Source: a bacterium
GTDB taxonomy: Bacteria > Patescibacteriota > Minisyncoccia > Phycocordibacterales > GWA1-40-21
DNA length: 58,842 nt
NCBI GenBank assembly: GCA_037147155.1
Contig: JBAWVR010000001.1
Location: 1-58,842 of the forward strand
Direction of reading: 5' to 3'
A model generated the notes under the pieces. The model did no database searches. It saw nothing but the letters and a program-made list of their open reading frames with translations, and was not told the origin of the DNA. Each line of letters starts with the position of its first letter. Positions within the stretch are counted from its first letter, which is position 1. A program made the position numbers and the translations under genes. Below, piece after piece: positions 7,145-58,624 of this stretch.

Positions 7145-7178
7145 GCCACACAAGCCGAAACCTGTCAAATCTCCCCAA

Positions 7179-7310: not shown

Positions 7311-7985
7311 TTAAATATCCAATCTCGCGTATTTAGCATTACTCTGAATGAAGTTCTTTCTCGATGGTACATCAGTACCCATGAGCATGTCGAAGATTTT
7401 GTCAGCATCAGCAGCGTCTTCAATATTCACTTGTTTCAAAAGTCTCTTAGCTGGATCCATGGTTGTCTCCCACAATTCTTCAGAGTTCATTTCTCCAAGA
7501 CCTTTATAACGCTGAACATGAATTTTTTCTTTTCTCACTACCTTATCATCTTTCTTGCCTTTGGAAGTTTTTTCTTCTGCTCCGATAGTCAGCTGCTCTG
7601 GAACTTCAATCACTATCTCTTCCCCACTCTCCTCATCCATCGGAATATCATCACCAAACATTTTCTTCTTTTCTTCTTCGGTGTAGAAATACATAATCTC
7701 TTTACCACGTTTTACTTTGTATAGTGGTGGTTGAGCAATATAAATATATCCTCCTTCTACCAATGGTCTAAAGTAGCGATAGAATAAAGTCAGAAGCAAA
7801 GTACGAATGTGTGCACCGTCCACGTCGGCATCTGTTGCGATAATCACTTTGTAGTAACGCAATTTTTCCAAATCAAAACTATCACCAATACTAGTACCAA
7901 GTGCCACCACTAAGTTCTTGATTTGTTCAGAAGCCAACATCTTGTCCAAGCGAGCACGTTCAATGTTTAGAATCTTTCCACGCAA
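7311..7985 (-). CDS. gyrB: DNA gyrase subunit B, C-terminal part (Toprim/tail), out of frame with the N-terminal part
   Basis: 224-aa ORF beginning (L)RGKILNIERAR, the continuation of the conserved QAILPLRGKILN motif. Ends ...GLGEMN...RLDI. Confidence 0.85.
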   Translation of the reverse strand: MRGKILNIERARLDKMLASEQIKNLVVALGTSIGDSFDLEKLRYYKVIIATDADVDGAHIRTLLLTLFYRYFRPLVEGGYIYIAQPPLYKVKRGKEIMYFYTEEEKKKMFGDDIPMDEESGEEIVIEVPEQLTIGAEEKTSKGKKDDKVVRKEKIHVQRYKGLGEMNSEELWETTMDPAKRLLKQVNIEDAADADKIFDMLMGTDVPSRKNFIQSNAKYARLDI

Positions 7986-10108: not shown

Positions 10109-12487
10109 TTATCTTACCTGCCAACCTTTAGCAGTTACTTCGGCATTAATAGCAGACATGATAACGTCAATCTCCTCTCCGGAAAGTGTCCTCTCATATG
10201 ATTGAAAAACTAATCGATAGGCGTAAGAGGTTTTACTGGTACCGTCTGGAAATTTCTTAACGAAGACATCAAACAAATTTGAACGTACCAACAAGTCACC
10301 TGACTTGGCTTTAATAATTTCTAGGAGTGCCGCATCTGTTACCCCCTCAGGCACAAAGACCGCAATGTCTCGAGAGACAAAAGGATACTGAGAGATTTTA
10401 TGGAAGCGTGTGGTGGCTGGAGCAATCATCATGTCTGGCACAAAATTTTCTGGCTCAGGCATTTTTTCCACAATCTGATTAAAATCAAATTCCACCACTC
10501 CATCAGCGCGAGTGATCGGATTTAAAACGAAACCTAGTTTTTCTACCACTGTTGCCAAGGCAGCATCCAAAACATCTTTTTCTTTTTTCAAGCCCTTAAC
10601 GCCGATAGGATTACCCACACCAAGACAGAGACGAATTGACTCACCATTAGCATTAAATACATGACCTATTTCAAATACTTTTATTTGAGACATACCGATA
10701 AGATCAGTATAGCGGGCATTGAATTCCAGCGATTTTGTAACAGAAGTTGCCAAATCTGTACGCAAAAAAGGTAGCTCCTTATTGAGTGGGTTGGCCACTT
10801 CAATTGCTCCTTGAGCCGAGAAGGCATAGGTATAAATTTCTGAAAAACCAAGCATGCTCAAAACTTTTCTGAGTTCGGTTGCGTAGTAATAAGACTTATC
10901 AGGCATCGCCCGTTTATCAGCCACCTTAACTTCCTTACCACCAATTTTCTCATAACCATTAACCATGGCAATATCTTCAATCAAATCTTCTTTGATACGT
11001 AGATCCAAACGGTCGACTGGGATAGTCACCACCCAACGTTCAGTGTTGTCTGTTACACGACCGCAACCAATAATATTAGTGAACTGCTCGCTGGTAGAAA
11101 GTTTTTCAATTACCACTCCATTCTTGTAACGAGTAGCCTGAACCACTTCATCATTACCGAGGTATAGTCCGACATGATCAATACCGCCTGATACTTTAGT
11201 GCCCGGCATAAATTCAATACTCTCTGTGTGTATCTTACCTTCTCCGCTATTAGCAAAAATCAAATCGCCAGCTTTTAAATCTTTAACTTCAACTCTATCA
11301 GTCGCCACGTACTGATCTATAGACATTCGTGGCAACAAAACGCCACCCTGAGCATAGAGGTAAGCCACGAGACCAGAACAATCAAATTCTTTTGGCGCAT
11401 TATAAGTCACACTAGCACCCACTCGATAAGTAGCACCAACCAGAGTCGGAGCAACCATCAACACTTCGTCAATAGGCTTAACAACTTTATATTCAAAGCC
11501 AAGATCAGAAAAAATATTTTCAATCTCTGGAGTAGTAAGACTAAGACCGAGCAAACGATTAATCTCGCCCAAGCTAACACCTACTTTATACTGATTGGCA
11601 CGTCGTGGATAGTTATCCACAACTTCACCTACCTTTGTGTCTGATGTGCCAGCGATTTCCACAATAATTGAAGTTAACAAATCCATTGCTTCACCAGCCA
11701 ATTCTGGTGAATAGTCATTTTCGTAGCGCTTGGAAGCGTCGGTCTGAATCTTGATATTAGCTGAAGTTCGGCGAATAAGTGTCGGATTAAAGTTGGCTGA
11801 TTCCAATACCAAATCAACAGTATTTTCATCAATTTCCGCCTCAGTACCTCCTTTAATACCAGCAATAGCTAAAGGACGATCCTCGTTGGTAATCAAAAGG
11901 ATGGATGGATCTAGTTCGACAAATTTCTTATCAAGAGTGGTAATAGATGTCTCGGCTTTGGCGCGCTTTACTTCAATCAAAATTTTGTCGTCACGTTTGA
12001 CTAGTTTACTGGCATCAAAAGCATGCATCGGCTGTCCGATTTCTAGCATAACAAAGTTAGTGGCATCAACAACATTACTGATTGAGCGCTGACCAAAAGC
12101 CTCAAGATAGTTTTTCAACCATTCTGGTGATGGTCCAATTTTAATTTTCTCTATTACACGTCCAGCATAACGACGACAATCTTTTTCATCTTCAATCTCA
12201 ATCGCTAACTTATTATTAGTTTCAGAAATAACATAAGACTTTAGCTCACGAGAATAAGTGGCTGGTTTTTGCTTAATTACAGCTCCAACCAATCTTGCTA
12301 CGCCACGGTGACAGAGAGCACTGTGGGCCAAGTTCGGTGTAACTTTCACATCCAAGATTTCATCATCACCAACAGGATTCACTGATTCCACTTCCAAAAA
12401 GCTCATCATCAATTTATTGGCGACGACTTTTGACTCTGGCAATTTACCAGCAAAGAAATTATTTAACCATTTATATGAAATATTCAT
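10109..12487 (-). CDS. pheT: phenylalanyl-tRNA synthetase beta subunit with an inserted NlpC/P60-like domain
   Basis: The track ORF starts at 12520, but MNISYKWLNNF (ATG 12487) is the canonical PheT N-terminus and avoids overlap with pheS. B3/4, B5 and the C-terminal domains are recognisable, and the B2 tRNA-binding OB-fold appears absent. An extra ~150 aa at residues ~347-495 of the track ORF carries DCSGLV...HVGLYLG. Confidence 0.9.
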   Translation of the reverse strand: MNISYKWLNNFFAGKLPESKVVANKLMMSFLEVESVNPVGDDEILDVKVTPNLAHSALCHRGVARLVGAVIKQKPATYSRELKSYVISETNNKLAIEIEDEKDCRRYAGRVIEKIKIGPSPEWLKNYLEAFGQRSISNVVDATNFVMLEIGQPMHAFDASKLVKRDDKILIEVKRAKAETSITTLDKKFVELDPSILLITNEDRPLAIAGIKGGTEAEIDENTVDLVLESANFNPTLIRRTSANIKIQTDASKRYENDYSPELAGEAMDLLTSIIVEIAGTSDTKVGEVVDNYPRRANQYKVGVSLGEINRLLGLSLTTPEIENIFSDLGFEYKVVKPIDEVLMVAPTLVGATYRVGASVTYNAPKEFDCSGLVAYLYAQGGVLLPRMSIDQYVATDRVEVKDLKAGDLIFANSGEGKIHTESIEFMPGTKVSGGIDHVGLYLGNDEVVQATRYKNGVVIEKLSTSEQFTNIIGCGRVTDNTERWVVTIPVDRLDLRIKEDLIEDIAMVNGYEKIGGKEVKVADKRAMPDKSYYYATELRKVLSMLGFSEIYTYAFSAQGAIEVANPLNKELPFLRTDLATSVTKSLEFNARYTDLIGMSQIKVFEIGHVFNANGESIRLCLGVGNPIGVKGLKKEKDVLDAALATVVEKLGFVLNPITRADGVVEFDFNQIVEKMPEPENFVPDMMIAPATTRFHKISQYPFVSRDIAVFVPEGVTDAALLEIIKAKSGDLLVRSNLFDVFVKKFPDGTSKTSYAYRLVFQSYERTLSGEEIDVIMSAINAEVTAKGWQVR

Positions 12488-12491
12488 GAGT

Positions 12492-13268
12492 TTATATTTT
12501 AGTTTCTGAATCAGTTTCAAATTGGTTGACTAGACGAAGGTCACCAGAGTACAAGAGACGAATATCATCAATGCCATATTTATACATCGCCAATCTTTCA
12601 ATTGAACCACCAAAGGCAAAACCAGTAAATTCTTTTGGATTAATACCGCCGTTCTGCAAAACTTTTGGATGGATCATTCCCGCCCCCATCACCTCTACCC
12701 AGCCACCCCCCTTACAGACAGGACATCCTACCTCGCCGTGATTACATTTAAAACACGAGATATCAATTTCTGTGCCTGGCTCAACGAAAGGAAAATAGCT
12801 CGGACGAAAGCGCACTTCAACATCCTTACCAAAAAACTTATCGAAAAAATAATTGAGCACAGACTTCAAATCTCCCATAGTGACATTCTTGTCCACCATC
12901 ATACCTTCGAATTGATAGAACTGAGTTTCGTGAGTAGCATCAGTGGCTTCTTGACGAAAAACCTTACCAGGACAGACCATCTTAAAAGGTGGCTTGTTGG
13001 TCTCCATGAAATGCGCTTGAATGGCACTAGTTTGAGTTCGGAGTAACATCTTGTGTTCTCCTTTTTCATCGGTTTCGGTACGCTCCAACCAAAAAGTATC
13101 CTGCATATCTCGAGCTGGATGATCCTTGGGCACATTCAAAACATCAAAGTTATAATACTCTGTCTCCATCTCTGGTCCATCCACCTTAACAAAGCCCAAT
13201 TCGCCAAAAATAGCGTTGACGCGATAGATGACGTCAGTGACTGGGTGAATTGTGCCTTTTTCTTTCAT
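12492..13268 (-). CDS. pheS: phenylalanyl-tRNA synthetase alpha subunit, short form
   Basis: 258-aa ORF covering the class II catalytic core (HPARDMQDTF, FRPSYFPFVEPG, GAGMIHP). The N-terminal coiled coil is missing. Confidence 0.9.
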   Translation of the reverse strand: MKEKGTIHPVTDVIYRVNAIFGELGFVKVDGPEMETEYYNFDVLNVPKDHPARDMQDTFWLERTETDEKGEHKMLLRTQTSAIQAHFMETNKPPFKMVCPGKVFRQEATDATHETQFYQFEGMMVDKNVTMGDLKSVLNYFFDKFFGKDVEVRFRPSYFPFVEPGTEIDISCFKCNHGEVGCPVCKGGGWVEVMGAGMIHPKVLQNGGINPKEFTGFAFGGSIERLAMYKYGIDDIRLLYSGDLRLVNQFETDSETKI

Positions 13269-45751: not shown

Positions 45752-46351
45752 CTAAAGTTGAGTTTCTTTAAGTGCGTCATTGATTTTCTGTACAGCCAAA
45801 CGACGCTGTTTGGTGAAATTGTTTATTTCTTCAATTTTCCATTCATGGGTTGAGATAAAAGGTTCAAGTTCCCTCTCTTCTCCGAAATAACCGAGGACAC
45901 GCAGGATTCTAATCACCATGAGTACTTCCAAATCCATCAGCTGTTGTGGAGACAATTTTTCCGCTTCATAGCGAATAAAATCAAAAAAGGTTTTGAGTAG
46001 AGTGAATAATTCCTGATGGGCTTCTTCACCAGTGGTTAGGCGACGGATCAAACTCAAGATTTTGACCCATAAAACAAAGCCGGGATTTTTGACTGATAGT
46101 TTATGATGATGGTCAAATTCCTTGCGAGCACCAGTCAGACGCCAGACTTCTTTACCACGAACCAACGACACCTCAATCAAAGAAAAATCGACTAGACTGT
46201 ATCGGAGCTTGGATTTGAGATGGCGAATACCAGTCGCTACTGCTCCCACCAAGCCAAATCTTTCGGTCAGCAAAAAAACAAAGAGACTGGATTCCCCTTG
46301 AGTACGACTGGCTAGGACTATGGCTTCGGTGTGGTATTTGCTGTGGGACAT
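45752..46351 (-). CDS. recO: DNA repair protein RecO
   Basis: MSHSKYHTEAIVLASRTQGESSLFVFLLTERFGLVGAVATGIRHLKSK is a RecO-like OB-fold N-terminus. The ATG at 46351 was chosen (track start 46378). Confidence 0.65.
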   Translation of the reverse strand: MSHSKYHTEAIVLASRTQGESSLFVFLLTERFGLVGAVATGIRHLKSKLRYSLVDFSLIEVSLVRGKEVWRLTGARKEFDHHHKLSVKNPGFVLWVKILSLIRRLTTGEEAHQELFTLLKTFFDFIRYEAEKLSPQQLMDLEVLMVIRILRVLGYFGEERELEPFISTHEWKIEEINNFTKQRRLAVQKINDALKETQL

Positions 46352-46394
46352 AAAAACAAAATCAAAATTAAAAAGCAAAAATCAAAATTGTGGA

Positions 46395-46438: not shown

Positions 46439-49400
46439 CTATTTAACCAACTTTAACTTAAACTCACTCTCCCCGACTTTTAACACCTCTCCTTCCACTG
46501 TTCCAAAATCAATTTCTACTGTTGCTGTCTTTTTGATTTCTTCTTGATAAAGGGTGACCAGAGTTTTACCGGCGTCATCTGTCTCGATAGTCAATTTGGC
46601 AATCTCGCCAGGATTGAGTCCAGTAGTTTTTCTCATTTCTTGAATCTGACGCAAGAGGTCGCGGAAATTTCCTTCTAACTTCAGTTCGTCAGTAATGTTC
46701 AAATCTAATTTAGTTGATTCATCTAACTTATCATCAAACAACACAGCCTTAACATTCACTTCATCAATAATTAGATTTAGGAAATCATCTTTACCAGCGA
46801 GAGTTTTATCTTTGACAGTCATTGATGCAAGTGGCTGGCGAACTTTCTGTCCGGCTTTAGCACGCATTTCTAATCCAACACTCACCAAACGACGAGTCTC
46901 AAACATGTTGCCCAAAAGTTCAGTATCCTTGGAATTTAATTCTGTCGCCTTTGGCCAATCTGCCAAGTGCACTGATTCTTTGTCGGTTTCAGTCTTCAAA
47001 GATTGATACAAAGTTTCGGAGACAAACGGCATGATTGGAGCCAAGAGCTTGGTCATTTCCAACAAAACATATCTAGTGGTCATAAGACCCTGATCTCTAT
47101 CTTCTACTACATCAGACTTGAAACGATCACGGGAACGACGCAAATACCAAGTAGACAAATCATCAACGAAATCTCCGAACGGACGAGCAGCCCGGTCTAG
47201 TTCATAATTCTCCAAGCCTTTGGTAACCGTCGCAGTTAATTCTTTGAGACGAGCCAGGATCCAGCGGTCCAAAACATTGGTACTGTCAGCGCTTGGAGCC
47301 AAAGGTTTTTCTCCCTTGTACATCTCGTAGAAAGAATGCACGTTTTGCAAACGCATAATTATTTTTTTGACCACTTCATCAACGCCCTTTTCAGAGAAAC
47401 GTAGGTCTTCAGCTTTGACCACTGGGCTAGACAAGAGATAGTAACGCAAAGCATCAGCACCGTATTTAGACACCACCAGCATTGGGTCAGGATAGTTTTT
47501 CAAGCGCTTGGACATTTTCTGACCATCTTCCGCCAAAACAATTCCGTTCACCACAACATTTTTAAATGATGACTTGCCAAACAATCCAACAGCAATAACC
47601 AACATCGAGTAGAACCAGCCACGAGTCTGGTCGAGTCCTTCACCAATAAATTCAGCGGGAAAACCTATCGCCTTTTTGAGGAAGCCAGGCTCTGGATTAA
47701 ACTTGTCCAAATTCTCATATGGATAGTGCCACTGGGCATAAGGCATGGAACCAGATTCAAACCAACAGTCAAAGACTTCTGGCACACGCTTCATCTCTTT
47801 ACCTTCACCACAAGCACAAGGAATCTTTACTTCATCAATATATGGTCGGTGCAAATCCAATTCATAATTGTCATTGTGTGGAATTGGAGTAAAGTCCAAT
47901 TTCTTCACTTCAGCGTTCTTGATAAAATCATGAGCTTCATGACGCATAGCAATCGCTTGATCTGGAGTCATGCCGGCAGCGCCAGCAAACATAAGCCAGC
48001 CTGGTGTATTGTGCGTCACTATCAAAATCTTTTTACCGGAATATTTTGAATTTATATCATACAAGAAGCTCACCATACGGTTCTTCACATCAGTGTGACT
48101 TTCTCCTCCTTCTGGTACTTTGTGGAATTTTTCTTCACGAGAACCAAAATATGCCTGATACTCGGCATCGGTTTTTCCATCCATCACCCCAACATTTATC
48201 TCTGACAATCTTTTATCAAAAATAATTTTGTCTTTACTAAAACCAATCATATCAGCGATTATTTCTACGGTTTCTTTGGTACGAACAAAAGGTGAAGCAA
48301 AAACCATATCGATTTTTTCTTTCTTTAGATTCATCGCCGTCTCCCGAGCTTGTTCCCTACCCAATGCTGTCAAAGGATTTGGATCATCTACTTTAGCTGA
48401 CAAAATCTTTTTAACATTACTCTCTGATTGACCATGGCGAACAACCAAAAATTCATTTCTCTGACCAATCGTTTTTTTCAAATCCTCAACTCCTCCAATT
48501 ACTTTAATAGCTTTACAATCTTCACAACGCCAAATTGGCAATGGTGCTCCCCAATAACGAGAACGAGAAATTGCCCAATCACGAGCGCCTTCAAGCCATT
48601 TACCAAAACGTCCTTCGCCAATTTCTTTTGTTACCCAATTAATATCATTATTTGCCTTGAGCAAACTATCACGCATCTTGGTCACTTCCACGAACCATGA
48701 TGAGGTCGCGTAGTTCAGCAATGGAGTATCACAACGCCAACAGTGTGGGTAAGAGTGCACGACTTTTTCTTTGGCAAACAACTGATTCTTGCCAGCCAAA
48801 TGCTTAATCATGGCGATGTCCATAGACATATGCTTTTCTTTTTCTTCAGCGGTATCGATAGGTTTTACATACTGTCCGGCAAATTCAGTCACTTCTGGTC
48901 GCATCTTACCGTCATAGGACACATGCTGGATAAACGGCATCTTGTATTCTTTGCCAAGATTCAAGTCATCCTCACCGAAAGCTGGGGCGATATGCACCAC
49001 ACCAGTACCATCTTCGGTAGTGACAAATGAAGCAGGGTAAATTTTGAAACCATTCTCCAAATTCTTTATATCACTACCCGGCTTGGTGTAATAATCAAAT
49101 AGTGGAATATATTTTTTACCCACCAAAGTCTGACCATTAAATTTTTCTACCAATTCGTAAGTGTCCTTGATAACTGACAAGCGACTTTCCGCGAGAATAT
49201 AAAATTCCGCACCAACTTTAACTTTGACATAATCAATATCTGGATTAATCGCCAAGGCCACGTTGCCCGGCAAAGTCCAAGGAGTTGTCGTCCAAGCGAG
49301 AACGTATGCTCCCCTCTCATCGGCCAATTCAAATTTAGCAGTAGCGGTAATATCGGTAATATCTTTATATCCTTGAGCTACTTCAAAGTTGGACAAAGTG

Positions 49401-49981
49401 GTGCCACAATGTGGACAAAGATGCATAGATTTGAAACCTTCATAGACCAAACCTTTTTCATGAAGTGTACGGAAAATCCACCACACAGACTCGGTGTAGC
49501 TAGAGTTTATGGTGCGATAGTCTTGCTCCATATTCACCCAACGTCCCACTCTCGGCACAATCTTCTTCCATTCATCCGCATAACGCATCACACTTGAGCG
49601 TGCACGCTCATTAAAATCTTTTAGTCCGTAATCTTCAATATCTTTTTTTGACTTTAAGCCCAGTTCTTTTTCCACAATGTTTTCCACTGGTAAACCGTGA
49701 CAATCCCAACCCCATTTACGGTCAACATGAAAACCACACATAGTGCGGTAACGTGGAATAACATCCTTGATAGTACCAGCGAGGAGGTGGCCATAGTGAG
49801 GCAGGCCGGTCGCAAACGGTGGACCATCGTAAAAGACATATTCACCTTTTGGTGATTCCTTGGCTAGAGCTTTTTCAAAAATATTATTGGTCTGCCAAAA
49901 AGCCATAGTCTCCTCCTCTTTTTGGGCGAGAGCACTCTTTGGAAAATCAAAATCCTGTTCTGCTTCTTTGTTGTCTGACAT
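46439..49981 (-). CDS. ileS: isoleucyl-tRNA synthetase (type 2-like) with an inserted histidine-phosphatase domain
   Basis: 1180-aa ORF: PHYGHLLAG (HIGH), an editing domain, KMSKRLKN, and an extra ~190 aa with RHGQSESN ... SPFVRTKET ... GGESH ... VTHN at residues ~508-697. Confidence 0.9.
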   Translation of the reverse strand: MSDNKEAEQDFDFPKSALAQKEEETMAFWQTNNIFEKALAKESPKGEYVFYDGPPFATGLPHYGHLLAGTIKDVIPRYRTMCGFHVDRKWGWDCHGLPVENIVEKELGLKSKKDIEDYGLKDFNERARSSVMRYADEWKKIVPRVGRWVNMEQDYRTINSSYTESVWWIFRTLHEKGLVYEGFKSMHLCPHCGTTLSNFEVAQGYKDITDITATAKFELADERGAYVLAWTTTPWTLPGNVALAINPDIDYVKVKVGAEFYILAESRLSVIKDTYELVEKFNGQTLVGKKYIPLFDYYTKPGSDIKNLENGFKIYPASFVTTEDGTGVVHIAPAFGEDDLNLGKEYKMPFIQHVSYDGKMRPEVTEFAGQYVKPIDTAEEKEKHMSMDIAMIKHLAGKNQLFAKEKVVHSYPHCWRCDTPLLNYATSSWFVEVTKMRDSLLKANNDINWVTKEIGEGRFGKWLEGARDWAISRSRYWGAPLPIWRCEDCKAIKVIGGVEDLKKTIGQRNEFLVVRHGQSESNVKKILSAKVDDPNPLTALGREQARETAMNLKKEKIDMVFASPFVRTKETVEIIADMIGFSKDKIIFDKRLSEINVGVMDGKTDAEYQAYFGSREEKFHKVPEGGESHTDVKNRMVSFLYDINSKYSGKKILIVTHNTPGWLMFAGAAGMTPDQAIAMRHEAHDFIKNAEVKKLDFTPIPHNDNYELDLHRPYIDEVKIPCACGEGKEMKRVPEVFDCWFESGSMPYAQWHYPYENLDKFNPEPGFLKKAIGFPAEFIGEGLDQTRGWFYSMLVIAVGLFGKSSFKNVVVNGIVLAEDGQKMSKRLKNYPDPMLVVSKYGADALRYYLLSSPVVKAEDLRFSEKGVDEVVKKIIMRLQNVHSFYEMYKGEKPLAPSADSTNVLDRWILARLKELTATVTKGLENYELDRAARPFGDFVDDLSTWYLRRSRDRFKSDVVEDRDQGLMTTRYVLLEMTKLLAPIMPFVSETLYQSLKTETDKESVHLADWPKATELNSKDTELLGNMFETRRLVSVGLEMRAKAGQKVRQPLASMTVKDKTLAGKDDFLNLIIDEVNVKAVLFDDKLDESTKLDLNITDELKLEGNFRDLLRQIQEMRKTTGLNPGEIAKLTIETDDAGKTLVTLYQEEIKKTATVEIDFGTVEGEVLKVGESEFKLKLVK

Positions 49982-50509: not shown

Positions 50510-50628
50510 GTCATTGCGAGGTATTCCGAAGCAATCCAGTCTTAATGGCGTTTTTTAACTAAAGGTCTGCCCGCCCGTACCGGACGGTACGTTCGGGCGG
50601 GGATTGCTTCGGAATACCTCGCAATGAC
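50510..50628. repeat. composite palindrome: two inverted 28-nt GTCATTGC hairpins around a GC-rich hairpin
   Basis: GTCATTGCGAGGTATTCCGAAGCAATCC (50510-50537) and its exact reverse complement (50601-50628). CCCGCCCGTACCGGACGGTACGTTCGGGCGGGG (50570-50602) lies between them. The repeat overlaps the last ~25 codons of the RT ORF. Confidence 0.8.
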
Positions 50629-51622
50629 CCGACGTCTCAGTTACCTCTTTGGACAACCTCCCAGCATTCCCATGCCTCAACATCCCCAAGTACGACTGCA
50701 CGGTCGCCTCTTTACCTTGTTTCTCTGCAATATTCCTAAACATTCTTTTCTTGGTGGCATTACGAATCACTCGGTGGTCATTAAAATGCACCCACCCGAG
50801 AAAGTCCACTCCCGAAGCCACAGTTGATACAGAAACCTTATTGGGGTGAAGTGTGAGTTTTAATTCAGCTCCGAGGAATTCCCCAACTTTGACCAAAACC
50901 TCTTCCAACCACTTTTTGTCCTGCGACATAAAAACAAAGTCATCAGCATATCTAATATAGTGCTTGGCTTTTAGTTTATGCTTCGCAAATTGGTCAAACT
51001 TATTCATATAAATATTTACCAGTAGTTGAGAAGTCAGATTCCCCAAAGGCAAACCAACACCCGCATGAGTAGAATGAAAACTCCCGACGATTTTCTGGAG
51101 CAGTCCCCGAATATCTTCATCTGGTATGTATTCAAAAAGTATTTTCAATAAAACATTATGGTCAATACTCGCAAAAAACTTTTTAATATCACACTTCAAT
51201 ACCCAAACAGTCTTAGTGTGATTACAAGAAACTTGGTATTCAAATTTTCTAAATGTTTCTATTGCTTTGTGTGTGCCTTTGTTCACCCGACACGAATATG
51301 AGTCGCTAATGAAAGTCTTGTCGAAAAATGGGTAAAGGATTCTATATAGAGCATGGTGGAGCAATCTGTCTCTCACTCTGGCTTTGTGAATACTTCTTGG
51401 CTTGGGGTCGGAAATATTGAAAGCTTGATAGGGCGAGTGAACATATTTTTTATCCCTTAAATCTTCATGCAAAGAAATAATATTTGTCATTAAATTCCTT
51501 TCAAACTCTCTGACATCTTCCCGACTTTTCTTGCCTACGACAAATTCTTTCCAAGCCAAAAGCAGATTTTCCAGAGAAATAATGTTACTATACTTTTGTT
51601 CAAAAACTTTTTTGTTATTCAT
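50555..51622 (-). CDS. DGR-type reverse transcriptase
   Basis: 355 aa from MNNKKVFEQ (ATG 51622; the track ORF starts at 51697). Contains RT motifs, LPLGNLTSQLLVNIYMNKFD (GNLTSQ as in DGR RTs) and YIRYADDFVF. No maturase or endonuclease domains. A TR/VR pair lies nearby. Confidence 0.85.
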   Translation of the reverse strand: MNNKKVFEQKYSNIISLENLLLAWKEFVVGKKSREDVREFERNLMTNIISLHEDLRDKKYVHSPYQAFNISDPKPRSIHKARVRDRLLHHALYRILYPFFDKTFISDSYSCRVNKGTHKAIETFRKFEYQVSCNHTKTVWVLKCDIKKFFASIDHNVLLKILFEYIPDEDIRGLLQKIVGSFHSTHAGVGLPLGNLTSQLLVNIYMNKFDQFAKHKLKAKHYIRYADDFVFMSQDKKWLEEVLVKVGEFLGAELKLTLHPNKVSVSTVASGVDFLGWVHFNDHRVIRNATKKRMFRNIAEKQGKEATVQSYLGMLRHGNAGRLSKEVTETSGHCEVFRSNPRPNVPSGTGGQTFS

Positions 51623-51643
51623 AACTATTACAACATAAAATAC

Positions 51644-52025
51644 ATGACTATGACGCCCCCCCCCCGCAAAATTATTACCTCTACTACAAAAACTCAAGGA
51701 TAATTATATTCTCTGGTATAGCTACTATTTAACCCTACCTAAACTCCACCGTCATTCCTTGGGTCAAAAAATTGACTGCTTATATATTGAGATTATTGAA
51801 GCCATATCTATTGCCAGTTATCTATCTAAGGAAGAGAAACTGCCATGGGTTAGACTTGCCACCCGCAAGACTGACACTCTCAAAATATTACTTTTGGTTT
51901 TATGGGAAACCAAATCACTTGATAACAAGAAGTATCTAGCCGTATCGGTAAAAATTGAAGAAATCGGACGGATGCTTGGCGGTTGGAGTGGTCAAATATC
52001 TAAACAAAACTCTCCCAACAAATAG
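51644..52025 (+). CDS. avd: Avd-like four-helix-bundle accessory protein, reading frame broken at a C10 tract
   Basis: The track ORF 51759-52025 (TTG start) encodes ...LGQKIDCLYIEIIEAISIASYLSKEEKLP...EEIGRMLGGW. The same frame is open back to 51654 and encodes the expected first helix (ILWYSYYLTLPKLHRHS). The only ATGs (51644, 51650) are out of frame by one C of the run at 51656-51665. Confidence 0.6.
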
Positions 52026-52046
52026 TCGGGAGAGAAATAGAGAGAG

Positions 52047-52183
52047 TTGCGACGCAGGAACACGAAACGATTGTCTGCATTGTAGAAGTTGTCAGCATGG
52101 CCATTGTTGCTATTGAGCCACAACTCGCCATCATCATTGCACTTCACATTGAACACCTTGAGGTCGCCGTCCGAGTCGGTTAT
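52047..52183 (-). repeat. DGR template repeat (TR), 137 nt
   Basis: Aligns without gaps to 52542-52678 (121/137 identical). At all 16 mismatches this copy has T on the plus strand, which is A on the transcribed minus strand. Confidence 0.9.
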
Positions 52184-52434
52184 ATATAAAATATCATCCA
52201 TATCACTGTCCTTTGAATACTCTCAAGACTGTATCTAATTTGGCATCGTAATGCTCCAATATTTTATACCAAGTATCTCTTGTTTTTAATAATACACACA
52301 CCACTCTATCCAAAACCTTGATCTTGAATACTCTCGATGTATGGATACTGTGTTCGGTAGTAGAAAACCGTAATCTTCCACATATTCACCTACTTACTTT
52401 TTTATTATAGCAGACACGACCGTTTTTGAATATT

Positions 52435-52472
52435 AAAAAAGCACCCTCATTGCCGAAGCAAATTGAGGGTGC
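52435..52472 (-). terminator. rho-independent terminator after the DGR target gene
   Basis: GCACCCTCATTGCCGAAGCAAATTGAGGGTGC hairpin followed by TTTTTT on the minus strand. Confidence 0.7.
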
Positions 52473-52537
52473 CGGAGAGCCGAGAGAGAGCAAAGTACAA
52501 AGGGACAAAGAAGTCCCAAGGTTCTTAGCTCTGAGAA

Positions 52538-53179
52538 CTACTTGCGACGCAGGAACACGAAACGATGGTCAGCATTGTAGAAGCGGCCAGCATGGCCATA
52601 GTAGCTAGAGAGCCACAACCCGCCATCATCACCGCACTCCACATGGAACACCTCGAGGTCGCCGTCCGAGTCGGTGATGGGTTCCATCGCAATGATGATC
52701 CATTCTCCTCTCGGCTGGTCCTGGTACTGCAAACGCAGTTGGGGACCAACTTCGGCAGGACAGAGGTCGAGACCAAGCTTGATAGCTTGCTCGTAGATTT
52801 CCTTGATGCTAGCCCCTTCCTTGAAGCCAAGCTCGCGAACCGAGAGATTCACGAGATCAACCTCGTTTTCCGTAGTGGACACGCTGGCTTCAAAAGCAGA
52901 CTTGCCGAGGATATCGTTGGCCCAGTCGCTGATATTGCTACCAGCTTTCTTCAGAACCTTACGGAAGTCACCGGCATTCTTGGGCCCGGTGCCGATCTTG
53001 ATGGTCTTCCAGATCGGGAAGTCCTTATCAACTTCATCCAAAATCAGGGCCTCGAGAACCTCTTGCAGTCTTGTGGGGTTTCCCATCCACTTCTGCATTT
53101 TTTCCCCTGTGAGTCCGGCCGGAAGGCAGGTGCACATGGCGGAGATGAAAGCGGCGGTCTGTTTGTTAATTGTGCTCAT
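52538..53179 (-). CDS. DGR target protein (213 aa), fold not recognised
   Basis: ORF with AAGGAA upstream of the ATG. The last 45 codons are the VR. No signal peptide or TM helix. Visibly GC-richer than the surrounding sequence. Confidence 0.8.
   Translation of the reverse strand: MSTINKQTAAFISAMCTCLPAGLTGEKMQKWMGNPTRLQEVLEALILDEVDKDFPIWKTIKIGTGPKNAGDFRKVLKKAGSNISDWANDILGKSAFEASVSTTENEVDLVNLSVRELGFKEGASIKEIYEQAIKLGLDLCPAEVGPQLRLQYQDQPRGEWIIIAMEPITDSDGDLEVFHVECGDDGGLWLSSYYGHAGRFYNADHRFVFLRRK
52542..52678 (-). repeat. DGR variable repeat (VR)
   Basis: Counterpart of the TR. It begins one codon before the stop codon of the target gene, and the 16 differences from the TR all lie at TR-adenine positions. 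Confidence 0.9.
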
Positions 53180-53832: not shown

Positions 53833-55602
53833 CTACATTTTCTCCGGTACCTCAATCCCCATCAAGTTCAATCCATTCTCCAAGACCTGTGCCGTAGCTT
53901 GGGCAATTGCCACACGATATGGTGAAGTAACTTCAGTCTTGTCCACGATTTTATGATTGGCATAATATGAATTAAATTCAGATGACAATTCAATCAAATA
54001 GGTGGCCATGAAGTGTGAAGAGTACTCGGTCTGACAACGCACTACCACTTCGGGGAAACGATAAATTATTTTCTCCACTCGACTGATTTCGGTTTCAGCT
54101 TTTTTCGCAGTCTTAAACATATTCCAGAAACCACCAATCACTCCAGCTTGTTTTGCCTTCTCTACAATGGACTTGGCACGGACACAGGTGTACTGAAGAT
54201 ATGGGCCAGAATCCCCTTCAAAGGATAGTGACTTCTCAAAATCAAAAATAATATCTTTGCCGGCCTCCTGTTTCAAAATAGAATAACGAATCGCACCGAC
54301 CGCAACAATCTCTGCCAACTTTTTCTTCTCTTCTTCGGTCATGACGCGCTCTTTGATTTTCTCAGTCGCAATTTCCTCCACATCAGAAATCATAGATTCT
54401 CCTGTGATCACATCACCGCGACGAGACGACATTTTACCGCCAGCAAAACGAAGCATACCATGAGAGATATGTTTGGTTTTCTCAGCTACTTCAGGTTCAA
54501 TCAAACTCAAAGCTTTCAATACTACCTTGAAATAATCACTCTGCTCGTGAGCAGTAATAATAATAGACTGATTGATATTTGGATTTTCTTTGAACTTCAA
54601 AGTATTCAAGCCCAACTCTTTGGTCTCATAAGTTGGAACACCCACAGAGTTCACGAACACGCGAGTGTGAAGACCATAATTTTCTCCACGGAAAATAGTG
54701 GCATTGTCACTCTTTTCAAAAATCCCTTTGGAATTTTCAGTCACAATAGTCAATCCATCTTTAACCACTTCACTTTCAAAATAATATCTATCAAATTTTG
54801 TGCCGAGTTTTTTGAATATTTCTTCAAAGTGCTTCATGCTGACAGCCTTACCAGCTTTGTGCAGTTTCATTATTTCTTCATCTTTGCCTTCAAAAATCAC
54901 TTTGTTCAACTGATCAATCTCAGCTTTTTCGGCTCCTTCTTTATCGTATTCTGATGAACCAAAAGTATAAGCCAAACCCCAAAAAGCCCCCTCATTATCA
55001 TGAGATAGCATAGCCACTTCTCTATCATAGACCGGCACTTTATCTTTCTTCTCCGCCAAATAATTCTGGTCCAATTTCTGATAGCCCCAAATAGCTTTGG
55101 CTACATGAAGACCAACATCACCTGAATAACAAGCACGTTTGACTTCGGCGCCAGCAAAAGCAATAAAACGTGACATGGTCTCGCCAACAGAGTTACTCAT
55201 GAGGTGACCAATGTGAAATTGTTTGAATGGATTTGGATCAGTGTACTCAATCAAAATCTTCTCCCCTTTTCGACTATCATTGCTACCATATTTTTTTCCA
55301 AGTTTAGGAATATTTTTTACTTCTATTTCAAAAAAGTCGGCCTGCAAATAAAAGTTGATGAAACCTGGGCCAGCGATTTCAATTTTCTCAACCTGGAGAA
55401 TATTTTTGGCATTTAATTTTTCTACAATTTTTTCAGCCGTTTGGCGTGGATTAAGACCAAGCTTTTTTGAGGCCACAAGAGAGGCATTTGTAGAATAATC
55501 TCCAAAATTCAAATCCTCTGGATGTTCAATGGCGATCTTGGCATCTGTGACACCCAAATCAGCCAAAACCTCCAAAACCGCTTTTTCTAATTGATTTTTC
55601 AT
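53833..55602 (-). CDS. argS: arginyl-tRNA synthetase
   Basis: 589-aa ORF: NPFKQFHIGHLMSN (HIGH) and GGKMSSRRG (KMSK-like). Confidence 0.93.
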   Translation of the reverse strand: MKNQLEKAVLEVLADLGVTDAKIAIEHPEDLNFGDYSTNASLVASKKLGLNPRQTAEKIVEKLNAKNILQVEKIEIAGPGFINFYLQADFFEIEVKNIPKLGKKYGSNDSRKGEKILIEYTDPNPFKQFHIGHLMSNSVGETMSRFIAFAGAEVKRACYSGDVGLHVAKAIWGYQKLDQNYLAEKKDKVPVYDREVAMLSHDNEGAFWGLAYTFGSSEYDKEGAEKAEIDQLNKVIFEGKDEEIMKLHKAGKAVSMKHFEEIFKKLGTKFDRYYFESEVVKDGLTIVTENSKGIFEKSDNATIFRGENYGLHTRVFVNSVGVPTYETKELGLNTLKFKENPNINQSIIITAHEQSDYFKVVLKALSLIEPEVAEKTKHISHGMLRFAGGKMSSRRGDVITGESMISDVEEIATEKIKERVMTEEEKKKLAEIVAVGAIRYSILKQEAGKDIIFDFEKSLSFEGDSGPYLQYTCVRAKSIVEKAKQAGVIGGFWNMFKTAKKAETEISRVEKIIYRFPEVVVRCQTEYSSHFMATYLIELSSEFNSYYANHKIVDKTEVTSPYRVAIAQATAQVLENGLNLMGIEVPEKM

Positions 55603-55703
55603 CCCGTTAGAGACTTGAGCATTATGTCTTTTGCCAAGCCTATTTTAATCTAGTAAATCTCTTGTTTAATTTGTAAAGTATCCCTCTTCGTCTCTAACGG
55701 GAT
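55601..55703. mobile_element. family B hairpin/TIR element, copy B1, abutting the argS start codon
   Basis: ATCCCGTTAGAGAC ... GTCTCTAACGGGAT. The left AT is part of the argS ATG on the minus strand. Related copy at 58522-58624. Confidence 0.7.
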
Positions 55704-57326: not shown

Positions 57327-58523
57327 TTATTTCTTCAAAATCTGATCAATTCTCTTGGCCAATTTAATCATATCTTTTTCTTTGGCTCCTCTTGTAGTCT
57401 CTCCGGCAGTACCCAAGCGAATTCCGGATGGATCAAATGGGGTGCGAGTCTCATTTGGAATAGTATTTTTATTTACAATGATTCCTTCCTTTTCCAATTT
57501 CTCAGAAGCCACGGCTCCTGGCATCCCCTCTCCACTCATCCATGTATCAACTAGAATCAAATGACTATCAGTACCGCCAGACACAATTCTCCAACCCAGT
57601 TTTTTCAATTCATCAGCCAAAACTTTTGCATTTTTTACTACCTGCTTGGCATATTTTTTGAAAGCTGGTGAAGCAGCTTCTTTCATAGCCACTGCCACAG
57701 CCGCAATCTGATTCATGTGTGGACCGCCCTGAAGTCCCGGAAAAATAGCTTTATCAATTTTCTTGCCCAATTCTCTCACATCTACTTTAGAAAAAATCAT
57801 TGCGCTGCGAGGTCCGCGCAAAGTCTTGTGCACAGTGGTAGTGACGATATCCGCATATTCAAACGGTGTTGGGTAAGCTCCACCAGCAACCAAACCAGCA
57901 AAGTGTGACATATCTACCATGAGCATCGCCCCACAAGCATCAGCAATCTCACGGAACTTTTTGAAATCCACCACGCGTGGATAAGCAGTATAACCAGCGA
58001 CAATCAATTTTGGTTTAGCTTCCACGGCCAGTTTCTTCAAATCTTCGTAGTCTAGAACTTCACTCTTGGCATCTACACCGTAGGCCACCTGTTGCCAGAA
58101 CTTTCCTGAAGCGGAAACTTTGTGACCGTGAGTCAAGTGACCACCATGATCAAGTGACATACCCATAATCTTTTCACCCTGAGGCACGAGTGCAAGATAC
58201 ACACCCAAGTTGGCTGGTGAACCAGATAGCGGTTGAACATTTACTTTCCAGCCACCAAGATCAGGTCGGTCAGTATCTCCAGCTTTCAAACCAAAAGCTT
58301 TAAGAGCTCTGTCCTGACACAGCAATTCAATCTTGTCGGTATTCACCTGTCCACCGTAGTATCGCTTGCCAGGATAACCCTCAGAATATTTGTTGGTGAG
58401 TTTGGAACCAAGAGCCTTCAAGACATCATCAGATACATAGTTTTCAGAAGCGATCAAAGAAATATTTTTCTTCTGTCTCACTTCTTCGGCTTTAATCAAC
58501 TTTTCAATTTGTTTGTCTTTCAT
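57327..58523 (-). CDS. glyA: serine hydroxymethyltransferase
   Basis: 398-aa ORF: LIASENY, GYPGKRYYGG, TTTVHKTLRGPR (PLP lysine). Confidence 0.95.
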   Translation of the reverse strand: MKDKQIEKLIKAEEVRQKKNISLIASENYVSDDVLKALGSKLTNKYSEGYPGKRYYGGQVNTDKIELLCQDRALKAFGLKAGDTDRPDLGGWKVNVQPLSGSPANLGVYLALVPQGEKIMGMSLDHGGHLTHGHKVSASGKFWQQVAYGVDAKSEVLDYEDLKKLAVEAKPKLIVAGYTAYPRVVDFKKFREIADACGAMLMVDMSHFAGLVAGGAYPTPFEYADIVTTTVHKTLRGPRSAMIFSKVDVRELGKKIDKAIFPGLQGGPHMNQIAAVAVAMKEAASPAFKKYAKQVVKNAKVLADELKKLGWRIVSGGTDSHLILVDTWMSGEGMPGAVASEKLEKEGIIVNKNTIPNETRTPFDPSGIRLGTAGETTRGAKEKDMIKLAKRIDQILKK

Positions 58524-58624
58524 CCCGTTAGAGGCTTGGGCATTATGTTTTCTGCCTAGCCATAGTTAATTTAATAAATATCTTAATTTTATTATACAAG
58601 ACCCCTCTTCGCCTCTAACGGGAT
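58522..58624. mobile_element. family B hairpin/TIR element, copy B2, abutting the glyA start codon
   Basis: ATCCCGTTAGAGGC ... GCCTCTAACGGGAT. Relative to B1, the A/T pair in the terminal stem is replaced by G/C on both arms. Confidence 0.7.

What the first reader, a model, noticed from the sequence alone, without database searches (positions are those of the whole stretch)
47891..48460. Histidine-phosphatase (phosphoglycerate-mutase-like) domain inserted in IleRS
About 190 residues lie between ...PIWRCEDCKAIKVIGGVEDLKK and ...LDLHRPYIDEVKIPCACGEG. They carry the full catalytic signature of the histidine phosphatase superfamily: VVRHGQSESN (RHG), ASPFVRTKET, GGESHTD and LIVTHN. Without the insert the protein is about 990 aa, typical for IleRS. 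An apparently intact phosphatase/mutase module inside an essential aaRS is unusual. With the PheT insertion, it is the second aaRS in this window carrying a foreign enzymatic domain.
Basis: partly seen in the sequence, partly recalled or inferred. Interest (0 to 1): 0.65.

Follow-up and report, generated by a model that had tools for sequence, protein, structure and literature searches.

The report
Phosphatase domain nested inside IleRS
An isoleucyl-tRNA synthetase from a Patescibacteria (CPR) bacterium has an intact histidine-phosphatase enzyme inserted in its catalytic core, and related bacteria encode the same phosphatase as a separate gene directly in front of ileS, which points to an undescribed partnership between the two enzymes.

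Summary
ORF 46439..49981 (-) encodes a 1180-aa type-2 IleRS. A branch-1 histidine phosphatase (Pfam His_Phos_1, E 2.5e-36) plus a 10-aa linker is inserted at aa 508-707, where solved IleRS structures have about 3 residues. It is not a misassembly: the identical protein is on 5 independent contigs.

The catalytic residues R515/H516/R567/E627/H657 are intact in 212 of 219 related copies. The fold resembles small phosphatases (PspA, PhoE, GpgP, CobC, TIGAR), not true phosphoglycerate mutases.

New findings:
- The architecture is widespread in Patescibacteria, in more than 100 clusters at 50% identity.
- The domain occupies at least four different IleRS loops, sometimes in two copies. One ValRS carries four.
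- Its closest free-standing relatives (about 190 aa) lie between argS and ileS. Of 55 evaluable metagenome loci, 52 have ileS downstream and 49 abut it.
- Nested and adjacent forms did not co-occur in the loci examined.
- The other fusion partners found are TsaC and ATP sulfurylase. Like IleRS and ValRS, both form an adenylate from ATP and release PPi.

Best reading: an operon partner of IleRS that became internalised and remains catalytically active. The substrate is unknown. My best guess is a by-product of adenylation, and this is untested. No literature describing the fusion was found.

The parts
46439..49981 (-). ileS ORF, 1180 aa: type-2 (eukaryote/MupA-like) isoleucyl-tRNA synthetase carrying the nested phosphatase
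   Evidence: ORF. TIGR00392 868.8 bits, cutoff 621.4; tRNA-synt_1, Anticodon_1, DUF5915; best solved relatives are cytoplasmic and T. thermophilus IleRS.
48461..49981 (-). IleRS aa 1-507: first half of the Rossmann fold (HIGH = HYGH, aa 62-65, 49787-49798), CP1 editing domain, WAISRSRYWGAPLPIW motif, and the first half of the second Zn knuckle (CEDC aa 486-489, 48515-48526)
47891..48460 (-). Nested histidine phosphatase domain (branch 1), aa 508-697. Catalytic residues: R515/H516 (48434-48439), R567 (48281-48283), E627 (48101-48103), H657 (48011-48013)
   Evidence: PF00300, E 2.5e-36; pentad intact in 212/219 copies; pLDDT 95-99. Foldseek target-normalised TM 0.72-0.80 to small phosphatases.
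47861..47890 (-). Conserved 10-aa linker TPIPHNDNYE (consensus PxPHNxxYE) that returns the chain to the IleRS strand LDLHRPYID
   Evidence: consensus; absent from free-standing proteins, which end right after the last strand; pLDDT about 87-98 in the fragment model; 85-95 in the full-length model.
46439..47860 (-). IleRS aa 708-1180: LDLHRPYID, second half of the Zn knuckle (CAC aa 722-724, 47810-47818), DCWFESG (47750-47770), KMSKS = KMSKR (aa 822-826, 47504-47518), anticodon-binding helical domain, DUF5915 C-terminal domain
53833..55602 (-). argS. It is the upstream member of the conserved argS-[His_Phos]-ileS-recO gene order. In this window the slot between argS and ileS holds a DGR instead of a free-standing phosphatase gene.
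   Evidence: synteny
45752..46378 (-). recO, the downstream member of the same conserved gene order

Best explanation
SHOWN. The ORF is a complete type-2 IleRS with HIGH, KMSKS, editing and anticodon domains. A roughly 190-aa branch-1 histidine phosphatase plus a conserved 10-aa linker is inserted in frame, in the loop between the two halves of a Zn knuckle in the second half of the catalytic core (aa 508-707). The module keeps the full catalytic set of its superfamily. It folds confidently as a small phosphatase. It belongs to a Patescibacteria clade whose free-standing members are encoded between argS and ileS, usually with the stop codon 1 nt before the ileS start codon. Related enzymes carry the module at three or more other IleRS loops, sometimes as two copies. 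One ValRS carries four.

INFERRED. The nested domain is an internalised version of that operon partner. It works as an active phosphohydrolase: His516 is transiently phosphorylated, Arg515/Arg567/His657 hold the phosphate, and Glu627 acts as the general acid. That mechanism is established for the superfamily and was not assayed here. IleRS charging continues alongside it.

MOST SPECULATIVE. The phosphatase is a dedicated partner of IleRS rather than a glycolytic mutase. Its substrate would be a phosphorylated by-product of ATP-dependent adenylation. Pyrophosphate is my first guess, and a nucleotide phosphate such as pAp or AMP is the alternative. The reason is that every other fusion partner found for this clade (ValRS, TsaC, ATP sulfurylase, and one apparent ArgRS read-through fusion in L116 that may be a sequencing error) also uses ATP with release of PPi.
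For: Anatomy. Real gene rather than chimera: 5 contigs, at least 3 samples; a two-copy variant found at identical length in 6 assemblies. Catalytic residues under selection across copies that are only 30-50% identical. Phosphatase-type fold. Recurrence: (68 clusters at E<=1e-30; about 115 of the best 150 are IleRS or IleRS fragments). Several insertion sites and copy numbers. Free-standing relatives abut ileS: 6 of 7 sampled; 52 of 55 evaluable metagenome loci, 49 abutting; 20 further loci nested. Nested and adjacent forms do not co-occur in the flanks available. No simple N-terminal fusion was seen although stop and start are 1 nt apart. Other partners: ValRS, TsaC and sulfate adenylyltransferase, both above NCBIfam cutoffs and in unrelated loci, and an apparent ArgRS read-through fusion in a single locus (L116).
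Against: No activity was measured. The substrate inference rests on three or four non-IleRS partners noticed after the fact. recO is also syntenic with ileS without any known functional link, so adjacency alone is weak evidence. Site 2 lies in the anticodon-binding domain, about 390 residues in sequence from site 1, so no single geometry relative to the active site is implied. Some Patescibacteria IleRS loci have neither the insert nor an adjacent phosphatase (L024, L030, L037, L039, L046, L055, L077). Peribacteria, which carry nested copies, are reported to encode an inorganic pyrophosphatase (PMC4736985). PPi diffuses freely, so a tethered pyrophosphatase gives no obvious local advantage. 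In the ATP-sulfurylase case the neighbouring sulfotransferase makes pAp an equally good candidate. The sequence has no feature that distinguishes it from generic broad-specificity phosphatases.
Confidence: 0.5

Rival explanations
1. Neighbour capture without functional coupling. The phosphatase is an ordinary housekeeping metabolic enzyme that happens to lie next to ileS in a conserved Patescibacteria gene cluster. Local rearrangements moved it into permissive surface loops of IleRS. The fusion is neutral, or favoured only for co-expression in a streamlined genome. The two activities are independent.
For: The cluster argS-HP-ileS-recO also contains recO, which is functionally unrelated. An apparent read-through fusion to the other neighbour, ArgRS, also occurs in one locus. 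The insertion sites are scattered, as expected for merely permissive loops. The domain is generic in sequence, below every equivalog cutoff. Insert-less relatives are nested among carriers in the rough host tree.
Against: The simplest fusion, loss of the stop codon 1 nt before the ileS start, was not seen among about 115 IleRS-embedded clusters, whereas internal insertions arose at four or more sites. The same clade is fused to ValRS, TsaC and ATP sulfurylase, the last two in unrelated loci. The linker is conserved and confidently modelled. The stop-start coupling is very tight in 49 of 55 loci.
Confidence: 0.3
2. tRNA-end repair. The module removes a 2'/3'-phosphate, or the remnant of a pyrophosphate, from the CCA end of tRNA(Ile) so that damaged or toxin-modified tRNA can be charged again.
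For: The partners IleRS, ValRS and ArgRS all bind tRNA acceptor ends, and TsaC belongs to a tRNA modification pathway. The insert sits in the catalytic core near the ATP-binding motif DCWFESG.
Against: The modules are not basic: median pI 6.2, median net charge about -2. ATP sulfurylase has no tRNA substrate. TsaC itself does not bind tRNA (own knowledge). Site 2 is in the anticodon-binding domain. I know of no precedent for a branch-1 histidine phosphatase acting on RNA ends (own knowledge).
Confidence: 0.07
3. Self-protecting synthetase. The module is a protein phosphatase, like PGAM5, Sts or SixA within the same superfamily. It reverses inhibitory phosphorylation of IleRS by HipA-like kinase toxins, which are known to target GltX, TrpS and LysS (own knowledge).
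For: The superfamily includes protein phosphatases. SixA is a weak hit (34 bits). Toxin-antitoxin genes are inserted between the phosphatase and ileS in L090 and L138.
Against: SixA is far below its cutoff of 74.5. The nearest folds are all small-molecule phosphatases. No kinase is seen in the neighbourhoods examined. This does not explain the fusions to TsaC and ATP sulfurylase.
Confidence: 0.06
4. The module is the organism's glycolytic cofactor-dependent phosphoglycerate mutase in a short, archaeal-like form, simply carried by IleRS.
For: The best NCBIfam hit is the 194-position dPGM_arch model (97 bits). Some free-standing relatives are annotated 'putative phosphoglycerate mutase'.
Against: It is far below the cutoffs (97 against 225; TIGR01258 36 against 81.7). 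True dPGM and BPGM structures rank below the small phosphatases (target-normalised TM 0.53-0.65 against 0.72-0.80).
Confidence: 0.05
5. Artefact: a chimeric assembly joining two genes, or a decaying non-functional insertion.
For: None found. L081 shows a fragmented ileS, but on a long-read-style contig where indel errors are likely.
Against: The identical ORF is in 5 contigs from at least 3 samples. There are hundreds of orthologs with the same junctions. The reading frame and catalytic residues are intact.
Confidence: 0.01

Closest known systems
Small broad-specificity histidine phosphatases of branch 1: PspA (4IJ5/4IJ6), PhoE (1H2E/1EBB), GpgP Rv2419c (4QIH), CobC (6NRU), TIGAR (3DCY), riboflavin-pathway HFP (9MMH)
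   Same: Same fold and the same Arg-His...Arg...Glu...His catalytic set. Similar size, about 190-210 aa. Foldseek E 1e-11 to 1e-13 with target-normalised TM 0.72-0.80. phmmer E 1e-9 to 1e-13.
   Different: Only 21-27% identical. Below every curated equivalog cutoff. Those enzymes are free-standing proteins. This one is nested in, or operon-coupled to, an aminoacyl-tRNA synthetase.
NCBIfam NF040702, 'isoleucine--tRNA ligase, N-acetyltransferase domain-containing'
   Same: Another IleRS variant with an unrelated enzyme domain built into the polypeptide. This shows that IleRS tolerates nested catalytic modules.
   Different: The domain is a GNAT rather than a histidine phosphatase. Judging by model coordinates, the position is also different: extra model positions lie at about 273-494, in the CP1 region. 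The window protein scores 287 bits against a cutoff of 1999, so it is not a member.
Bifunctional histidine-phosphatase fusions with nucleic-acid or nucleotide enzymes: RNase H/acid phosphatase (Rv2228c type, NF005567) and MutT1 Nudix-histidine phosphatase (NF052459)
   Same: A branch-1 histidine phosphatase covalently joined to an enzyme of nucleic-acid or nucleotide metabolism. NF005567 is the second-best NCBIfam hit to the insert (90 bits).
   Different: Those are end-to-end fusions. This is an internal insertion with both junctions inside the host's catalytic core. Scores are far below the cutoffs (90 against 326; 18 against 475).
Lineage-specific insertion modules of class Ia synthetase catalytic cores (CP1 editing domain, LeuRS leucine-specific domain). 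Own knowledge.
   Same: An extra folded module inserted in a loop of the Rossmann-fold core of a class Ia enzyme.
   Different: Those modules act on the aminoacylation substrates and have no independent enzyme homologs elsewhere. This module is a complete member of an unrelated hydrolase superfamily that also exists as a separate gene.
ATP sulfurylase fused to inorganic pyrophosphatase in some eukaryotes. Own knowledge, not checked here.
   Same: An adenylate-forming, PPi-releasing enzyme covalently joined to a hydrolase that removes its by-product. This is the logic I propose here. A relative of the insert is itself fused to ATP sulfurylase.
   Different: The hydrolase there is a canonical family I pyrophosphatase. 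Pyrophosphatase activity has not been shown for this histidine-phosphatase clade.

Membership tests
Histidine phosphatase superfamily, branch 1 (Pfam PF00300) | Profile match above the curated gathering score | tested here: met
   125.6 bits against 21.7, E 2.5e-36, aa 512-696 covering profile positions 2-180 of 194
Histidine phosphatase superfamily, branch 1 (Pfam PF00300) | Catalytic core: RHG nucleophilic His with flanking Arg, second Arg, Glu proton donor, distal His | tested here: met
   R515, H516, R567, E627, H657. Intact in 212 of 219 aligned copies, with 5 of the 7 exceptions truncated.
Histidine phosphatase superfamily, branch 1 (Pfam PF00300) | Alpha/beta fold of the superfamily | tested here: met
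   AF2 pLDDT 95-99 over the domain. Foldseek probability 1.00, target-normalised TM 0.72-0.80 to solved members.
Histidine phosphatase superfamily, branch 1 (Pfam PF00300) | Phosphoryl transfer through a phospho-histidine intermediate | not testable with these tools
   Needs an enzyme assay and an H516 mutant.
Cofactor-dependent phosphoglycerate mutase (dPGM) | Score above the curated cutoff of the dPGM models | tested here: not met
   TIGR01258 36 bits against 81.7. NF038349 dPGM_arch 97 against 225. All gpmA/gpmB equivalogs are far below cutoff.
Cofactor-dependent phosphoglycerate mutase (dPGM) | Structure closer to mutases than to phosphatases | tested here: not met
   dPGM and BPGM structures give target-normalised TM 0.53-0.65. 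They rank below the 200-aa phosphatases at 0.72-0.80.
Isoleucyl-tRNA synthetase (TIGR00392), type 2 | Equivalog score above cutoff; HIGH and KMSKS motifs; CP1 editing and anticodon-binding domains | tested here: met
   868.8 bits against 621.4. HYGH aa 62-65 and KMSKR aa 822-826. tRNA-synt_1, Anticodon_1 and DUF5915 present. Best solved relatives are cytoplasmic and T. thermophilus IleRS, E 1e-210 to 1e-227, against 9e-96 for type-1 S. aureus.
Isoleucyl-tRNA synthetase (TIGR00392), type 2 | Isoleucine-specific aminoacylation of tRNA(Ile) | not testable with these tools
   Needs a charging assay. No second ileS is present in the 58-kb window.
IleRS with N-acetyltransferase domain (NF040702) | Score above cutoff and presence of a GNAT domain | tested here: not met
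   287 bits against 1999. No GNAT hit in Pfam.
Inorganic pyrophosphatase (function only; proposed by analogy) | Hydrolysis of PPi | not tested
   There is no sequence relationship to family I/II or membrane pyrophosphatases. The idea rests only on the shared chemistry of the fusion partners.

The most novel reading that the evidence does not exclude
The small histidine phosphatase is a previously unrecognised auxiliary subunit of IleRS in a large part of the Patescibacteria. It would be non-covalent where it is encoded just upstream of ileS and covalent where it is nested. It would carry out a catalytic step coupled to aminoacylation: either removal of a phosphorylated by-product at the adenylation site, or repair of a phosphorylated tRNA or enzyme. 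That would add a new kind of catalytic activity to the known repertoire of aminoacyl-tRNA synthetase accessory functions.
Probability: 0.2. Interest if true: 0.85.

Novelty: new variant of a known kind. Interest (0 to 1): 0.63.

Why it matters
Aminoacyl-tRNA synthetases are among the most conserved enzymes. Catalytic modules added to them have usually turned out to have a role, as with editing domains and eukaryotic appended domains. In this case an intact hydrolase from an unrelated superfamily is tied to IleRS across many Patescibacteria lineages in two interchangeable forms: a translationally coupled upstream gene, or a domain nested at several different loops. That pattern is what one expects for a working partnership.

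Public records currently label these proteins 'class I tRNA ligase family protein' or 'histidine phosphatase family protein, partial'. Seven full-text searches found no description of the fusion.

If the coupling is functional, it reveals an unknown requirement of translation in organisms with minimal genomes. If it is neutral, it is an unusually rich natural experiment on where a class I synthetase tolerates a 20-kDa insertion. Either outcome can be tested directly with recombinant protein.

Tried and rejected
- Misassembly or chimera: rejected. The identical ORF is on 5 contigs.
- True phosphoglycerate mutase: curated cutoffs are not met and the structural neighbours are phosphatases.
- 'Split IleRS' suggested by short PF00133+PF00300 proteins on long contigs, such as P0032. 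L081 shows ileS cut into 4 ORFs on a long-read-style contig with otherwise identical synteny, most likely from indel errors. I did not interpret it further.
- 'Replaces a missing pyrophosphatase': not supported. Peribacteria genomes are reported to encode one. Genome-wide presence or absence could not be tested here.
- Basic charge as a sign of RNA binding: negative.
- Riboswitch, T-box or other known RNA upstream of ileS: no Rfam match anywhere in the window.
- Recent horizontal acquisition judged from composition: only a modest GC dip (insert 0.382 against 0.423 for the rest of the gene). Uninformative.
- Word-indexed homology search with the insert alone gave only 26 hits and no architectures.
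- The diverse alignment A2 was too variable for the metagenome scan. I replaced it with A4.
- The first host alignment timed out. The NJ tree that replaced it has no support values, so I use it only qualitatively.
- Domain identities of 30-50% between all classes do not resolve the order of insertion events.
- The structure tools return no coordinates. I therefore could not test whether the phosphatase active site faces the adenylate or tRNA site, or whether the four sites cluster in space.
- The full-length model lacks alignment depth for aa 1-160.
Full report
OBSERVATION. The window contains a 1180-aa ORF at 46439..49981 on the minus strand. NCBIfam identifies it as isoleucyl-tRNA synthetase: TIGR00392 scores 868.8 bits against a cutoff of 621.4. 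Pfam splits the class I catalytic domain into two stretches and places His_Phos_1 (PF00300) between them at aa 512-696, with E 2.5e-36 and 125.6 bits against a cutoff of 21.7. The finding's coordinates correspond to aa 508-697, and all four quoted motifs are there.

ANATOMY. Alignment to solved IleRS structures fixes the boundaries. Query residues up to 507/509 and from 709 onward align continuously with human (494->498) and yeast (496->499) cytoplasmic IleRS. About 200 residues therefore stand where those enzymes have about three. The best solved relatives are eukaryotic cytoplasmic and Thermus thermophilus enzymes (E 1e-210 to 1e-227), against 9e-96 for the type-1 S. aureus enzyme, so this is a type-2 IleRS.

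The insert lies between CEDC (aa 486-489) and CAC (aa 722-724). These are the two halves of a Zn knuckle that precedes the ATP-site motif DCWFESG. From memory, they correspond to Cys461/464/502/504 of the T. thermophilus enzyme. The host keeps HIGH (HYGH, aa 62-65), KMSKS (KMSKR, aa 822-826), the CP1 editing region, the anticodon-binding domain and the DUF5915 C-terminal domain.

Compared with insert-less relatives, the insert replaces a loop of 5-6 residues. It consists of the phosphatase domain (aa 508-697) followed by a conserved linker, TPIPHNDNYE (consensus PxPHNxxYE). Free-standing relatives lack this linker.

STRUCTURE. An AlphaFold2 model of aa 440-790, built from 107 aligned sequences, gives pLDDT above 90 across the Zn-knuckle hairpin, the whole phosphatase and the linker (pTM 0.78). 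A full-length model again gives 95-98 for the domain, but only 67-88 at the knuckle. Its first 160 residues are unmodelled because the permitted alignment does not cover them. A fixed orientation of the module on IleRS is therefore suggested rather than established.

Foldseek places the domain closest to phosphatases of about 200 aa: PspA, a mycobacterial hydrolase, GpgP Rv2419c, TIGAR, a riboflavin-pathway phosphatase, CobC, PhoE and Rv3214 (target-normalised TM 0.72-0.80). True dPGM and BPGM structures score lower, at 0.53-0.65. The sequence comparison agrees. No curated equivalog cutoff is reached, including the dPGM models. 'Phosphoglycerate-mutase-like' therefore holds only at superfamily level.

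NOT AN ARTEFACT. The exact 1180-aa protein is encoded on five independently assembled contigs from at least three samples. About 50 partial proteins with PF00133+PF00300 were found by homology search, mostly labelled Patescibacteria. Twenty-three GTDB species representatives carry the insert at the same position. They include Paceibacteria/Minisyncoccia, Nomurabacteria, Yanofskybacteria, Spechtbacterales and Peregrinibacteria/Peribacteria.

An exhaustive search with the insert gave 68 clusters (50% identity level) at E<=1e-30. About 115 of the best 150 are IleRS or IleRS fragments. The catalytic pentad R515/H516/R567/E627/H657 is intact in 212 of 219 aligned copies. Five exceptions are truncated sequences and two have a changed Glu. 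The copies are only 30-50% identical to one another. That degree of conservation argues for selection on catalysis.

VARIANTS. The domain is not confined to one site. In window numbering, site 1 (507|709) is the common one. Site 1b lies at the tip of the second knuckle half (about 718|729) and holds a second copy in L021, L023, L025, P0250 and P0234. Site 3 (about 754|775, after SMPYAxxxYP) is used in P0200, P0236 and P0154. Site 2 (about 893|896) is the loop after the first long helix of the anticodon-binding domain. It is used in L026, P0200, P0232 and P0236.

The combinations 1+1b, 1+3, 1+2, 3+2 and 2 alone all occur. The 3+2 form exists at identical length in six assemblies, one of them a 1.06-Mb contig. 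A rough NJ tree without support values places all the alternative layouts in one Peregrinibacteria/Peribacteria-type clade. It also shows insert-less enzymes (L030, L024) nested among site-1 carriers, so gains, losses or moves have been frequent.

P0126 is a complete ORF found in two assemblies, at low coverage of about 2x. It is a ValRS N-terminal half (valS models 381-411 bits, ileS 199) with one copy after the editing domain and three more at the position homologous to site 1.

ORIGIN. The nearest free-standing relatives form a large family of 186-205-aa proteins named 'histidine phosphatase family protein [Patescibacteria ...]'. There are 2045 hits at E<=1e-10. Six of seven sampled on long contigs lie upstream of an insert-less ileS on the same strand. 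Three have the stop codon 1-5 nt from the ileS start (TAAtATG). Three are separated from ileS by small accessory genes: a toxin-antitoxin pair plus HD_3, a CYTH gene, and a radical-SAM gene. The seventh is more distant and sits in the adk-map-infA-rpsM cluster.

A metagenome scan with a profile of these proteins returned 80 loci. In 20 the domain is nested in IleRS. Of the 55 free-standing loci that can be evaluated, 52 have ileS downstream and 49 essentially abut it, usually with argS upstream. The window has the same argS ... ileS-recO order, but it has a DGR and no phosphatase gene in the slot.

Loci with a nested copy show no second phosphatase gene in their flanks, and the window has none in 58 kb. 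In the data I could examine, the nested and adjacent forms are alternatives. The nested domain is best read as the internalised operon partner.

The simplest fusion would be loss of the stop codon 1 nt before the ileS start. It was not seen among the IleRS-embedded clusters. One apparent read-through fusion to the upstream ArgRS was found in a single locus (L116), and it could be a sequencing error.

FUNCTION: SHOWN AND INFERRED. Shown: an intact, conserved catalytic apparatus in a phosphatase-type fold, and a genetic association with ileS that persists in two physical forms. Inferred from the established chemistry of the superfamily: hydrolysis through a phospho-His516 intermediate, with Glu627 as the proton donor.

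The substrate is not identified. One clue is that every other fusion partner found for this clade forms an adenylate from ATP and releases pyrophosphate. These are ValRS, TsaC (TIGR00057, 146.8 bits against 123.2) and sulfate adenylyltransferase (TIGR00339, 405 against 323). The last two lie in unrelated loci. This suggests removal of a common by-product. PPi is the only product shared by all of these enzymes. Cleavage of phosphoanhydrides by this fold has precedent in branch 2: the PPIP5K/Vip1 phosphatase domain and E. coli AppA (own knowledge).

The case is weak, however. It rests on few partners noticed after the fact. Peribacteria are reported to have a pyrophosphatase (PMC4736985). A tethered enzyme cannot locally deplete a freely diffusing ion. 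In the sulfurylase locus the adjacent sulfotransferase makes pAp an equally good candidate.

Against a role on tRNA, the modules are not basic (median pI 6.2) and sulfurylase has no tRNA substrate. A protein-phosphatase role, reversing HipA-like phosphorylation of the synthetase, is not excluded but has no positive support. The main rival is neutral capture of a neighbouring housekeeping gene. It is supported by the equally conserved but functionally unrelated recO and by the scatter of insertion sites.

My estimates are: functional partnership with IleRS about 0.5, with by-product removal the favoured mechanism within that; neutral capture about 0.3; the remaining specific ideas together about 0.2.

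COMPARISON WITH WHAT IS KNOWN. The module is a member of the branch-1 histidine phosphatase superfamily, with profile, catalytic residues and fold all met. It is not a member of any curated functional family. The host is a member of type-2 IleRS.

The nearest described analog for a nested enzyme in IleRS is the NCBIfam model for IleRS with a GNAT domain. That has a different domain at a different position, and its cutoff is not met here. End-to-end fusions of this phosphatase fold with RNase H (Rv2228c type) and Nudix (MutT1) are known, but they are not insertions.

Seven full-text searches found no description of an IleRS-histidine phosphatase fusion or of the ileS-linked phosphatase gene. 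I classify it as a new variant of a known kind: a synthetase with an accessory catalytic module.

LIMITS. There was no assay, no atomic coordinates and no whole-genome access. The counts from capped scans are lower bounds. The trees are distance-based and have no support values. The metagenome sample was drawn with a profile that included four members already known to be next to ileS.

Noticed in passing
window 10109-12520 (-), PheT aa 364-477 (about 11090-11431): The phenylalanyl-tRNA synthetase beta chain has an NlpC/P60 domain (E 4.7e-17) nested between B3_4 and the tail of B5. Its catalytic DCSG Cys and HVGLY His are intact. This is a second synthetase in the window with an apparently active nested enzyme.
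   Followed up: partly
window 50555-53179 (-): RT 50555-51697; TR 52047-52183; VR 52542-52678 inside ORF 52538-53179: A diversity-generating retroelement sits between argS and ileS. It has a reverse transcriptase (RVT_1), a bAvd gene called in the identical locus L082, and a 137-nt template/variable repeat pair. All 16 mismatches are A in the template copy. The variable repeat lies at the 3' end of a 213-aa ORF with no Pfam match.
   Followed up: partly
window 55597-55703 and 58518-58624: Two copies (79% identical) of a 107-nt element with terminal inverted repeats (TTTCATCCCGTTAGAG ... CTCTAACGGGAT). Each lies just upstream of a minus-strand gene (argS, and the ORF at 57327-58523). Nature unknown.
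   Followed up: no
window 7311-9400 (-): gyrB is split into two overlapping ORFs: 7967-9400 (HATPase_c + DNA_gyraseB) and 7311-7985 (Toprim + GyrB C-terminus). This could be a frameshift, a sequencing error or a genuine split.
   Followed up: no
L093 366-3851 (protein P0126): A ValRS N-terminal half carries four diverged histidine-phosphatase domains, each with RHG. One follows the editing domain and three are in tandem at the site homologous to IleRS site 1. The ORF ends there and the contig ends 96 nt later, so the fate of the ValRS C-terminal half is unknown. Coverage is low, about 2x.
   Followed up: partly
L175 977-2140 (P0219); L176 6001-7707 (P0254): Close relatives of the insert are fused to TsaC/Sua5 (threonylcarbamoyl-AMP synthase) and to ATP sulfurylase. 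The ATP-sulfurylase fusion lies next to a sulfotransferase in a glycosyltransferase cluster.
   Followed up: partly
L116 3381-5567: The argS stop codon appears to be missing, giving a 729-aa ArgRS-histidine phosphatase read-through ORF directly upstream of ileS. It is a single case and could be a sequencing error.
   Followed up: no
L090 4652-5819; L091 4570-5160; L092 4663-6105; L138 about 5600-7250: The short gap between the free-standing phosphatase gene and ileS repeatedly holds accessory genes: an RHH/YafQ-type toxin-antitoxin pair plus an HD_3 phosphohydrolase, a CYTH triphosphate-tunnel enzyme, a radical-SAM/SPASM protein, and a RelE-like toxin. In the window a DGR occupies the argS-ileS gap. 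This looks like an insertion hot spot.
   Followed up: no
L064 5807-6415: In the Firmicute Urinicoccus massiliensis a 203-aa histidine phosphatase ORF (E 2e-26 to the insert profile) lies about 400 nt downstream of ileS. It is the only non-Patescibacteria locus among L024-L080 with such a neighbour, and it may be coincidence.
   Followed up: no
L081 4337-7857: On a 733-kb contig with the same argS-ileS-recO synteny, the insert-bearing ileS is called as four separate ORFs (489, 195, 113 and 186 aa). Most likely these are indel errors of a long-read assembly rather than a split gene.
   Followed up: partly
L087 6576-9539: The ileS downstream of the free-standing phosphatase in Parcubacteria Licking1014_1 is a markedly divergent IleRS (PWLDAG instead of DCWFESG, HKSKGN instead of KMSKS; TIGR00392 684 bits). 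The phosphatase-ileS adjacency therefore spans quite different IleRS lineages.
   Followed up: no
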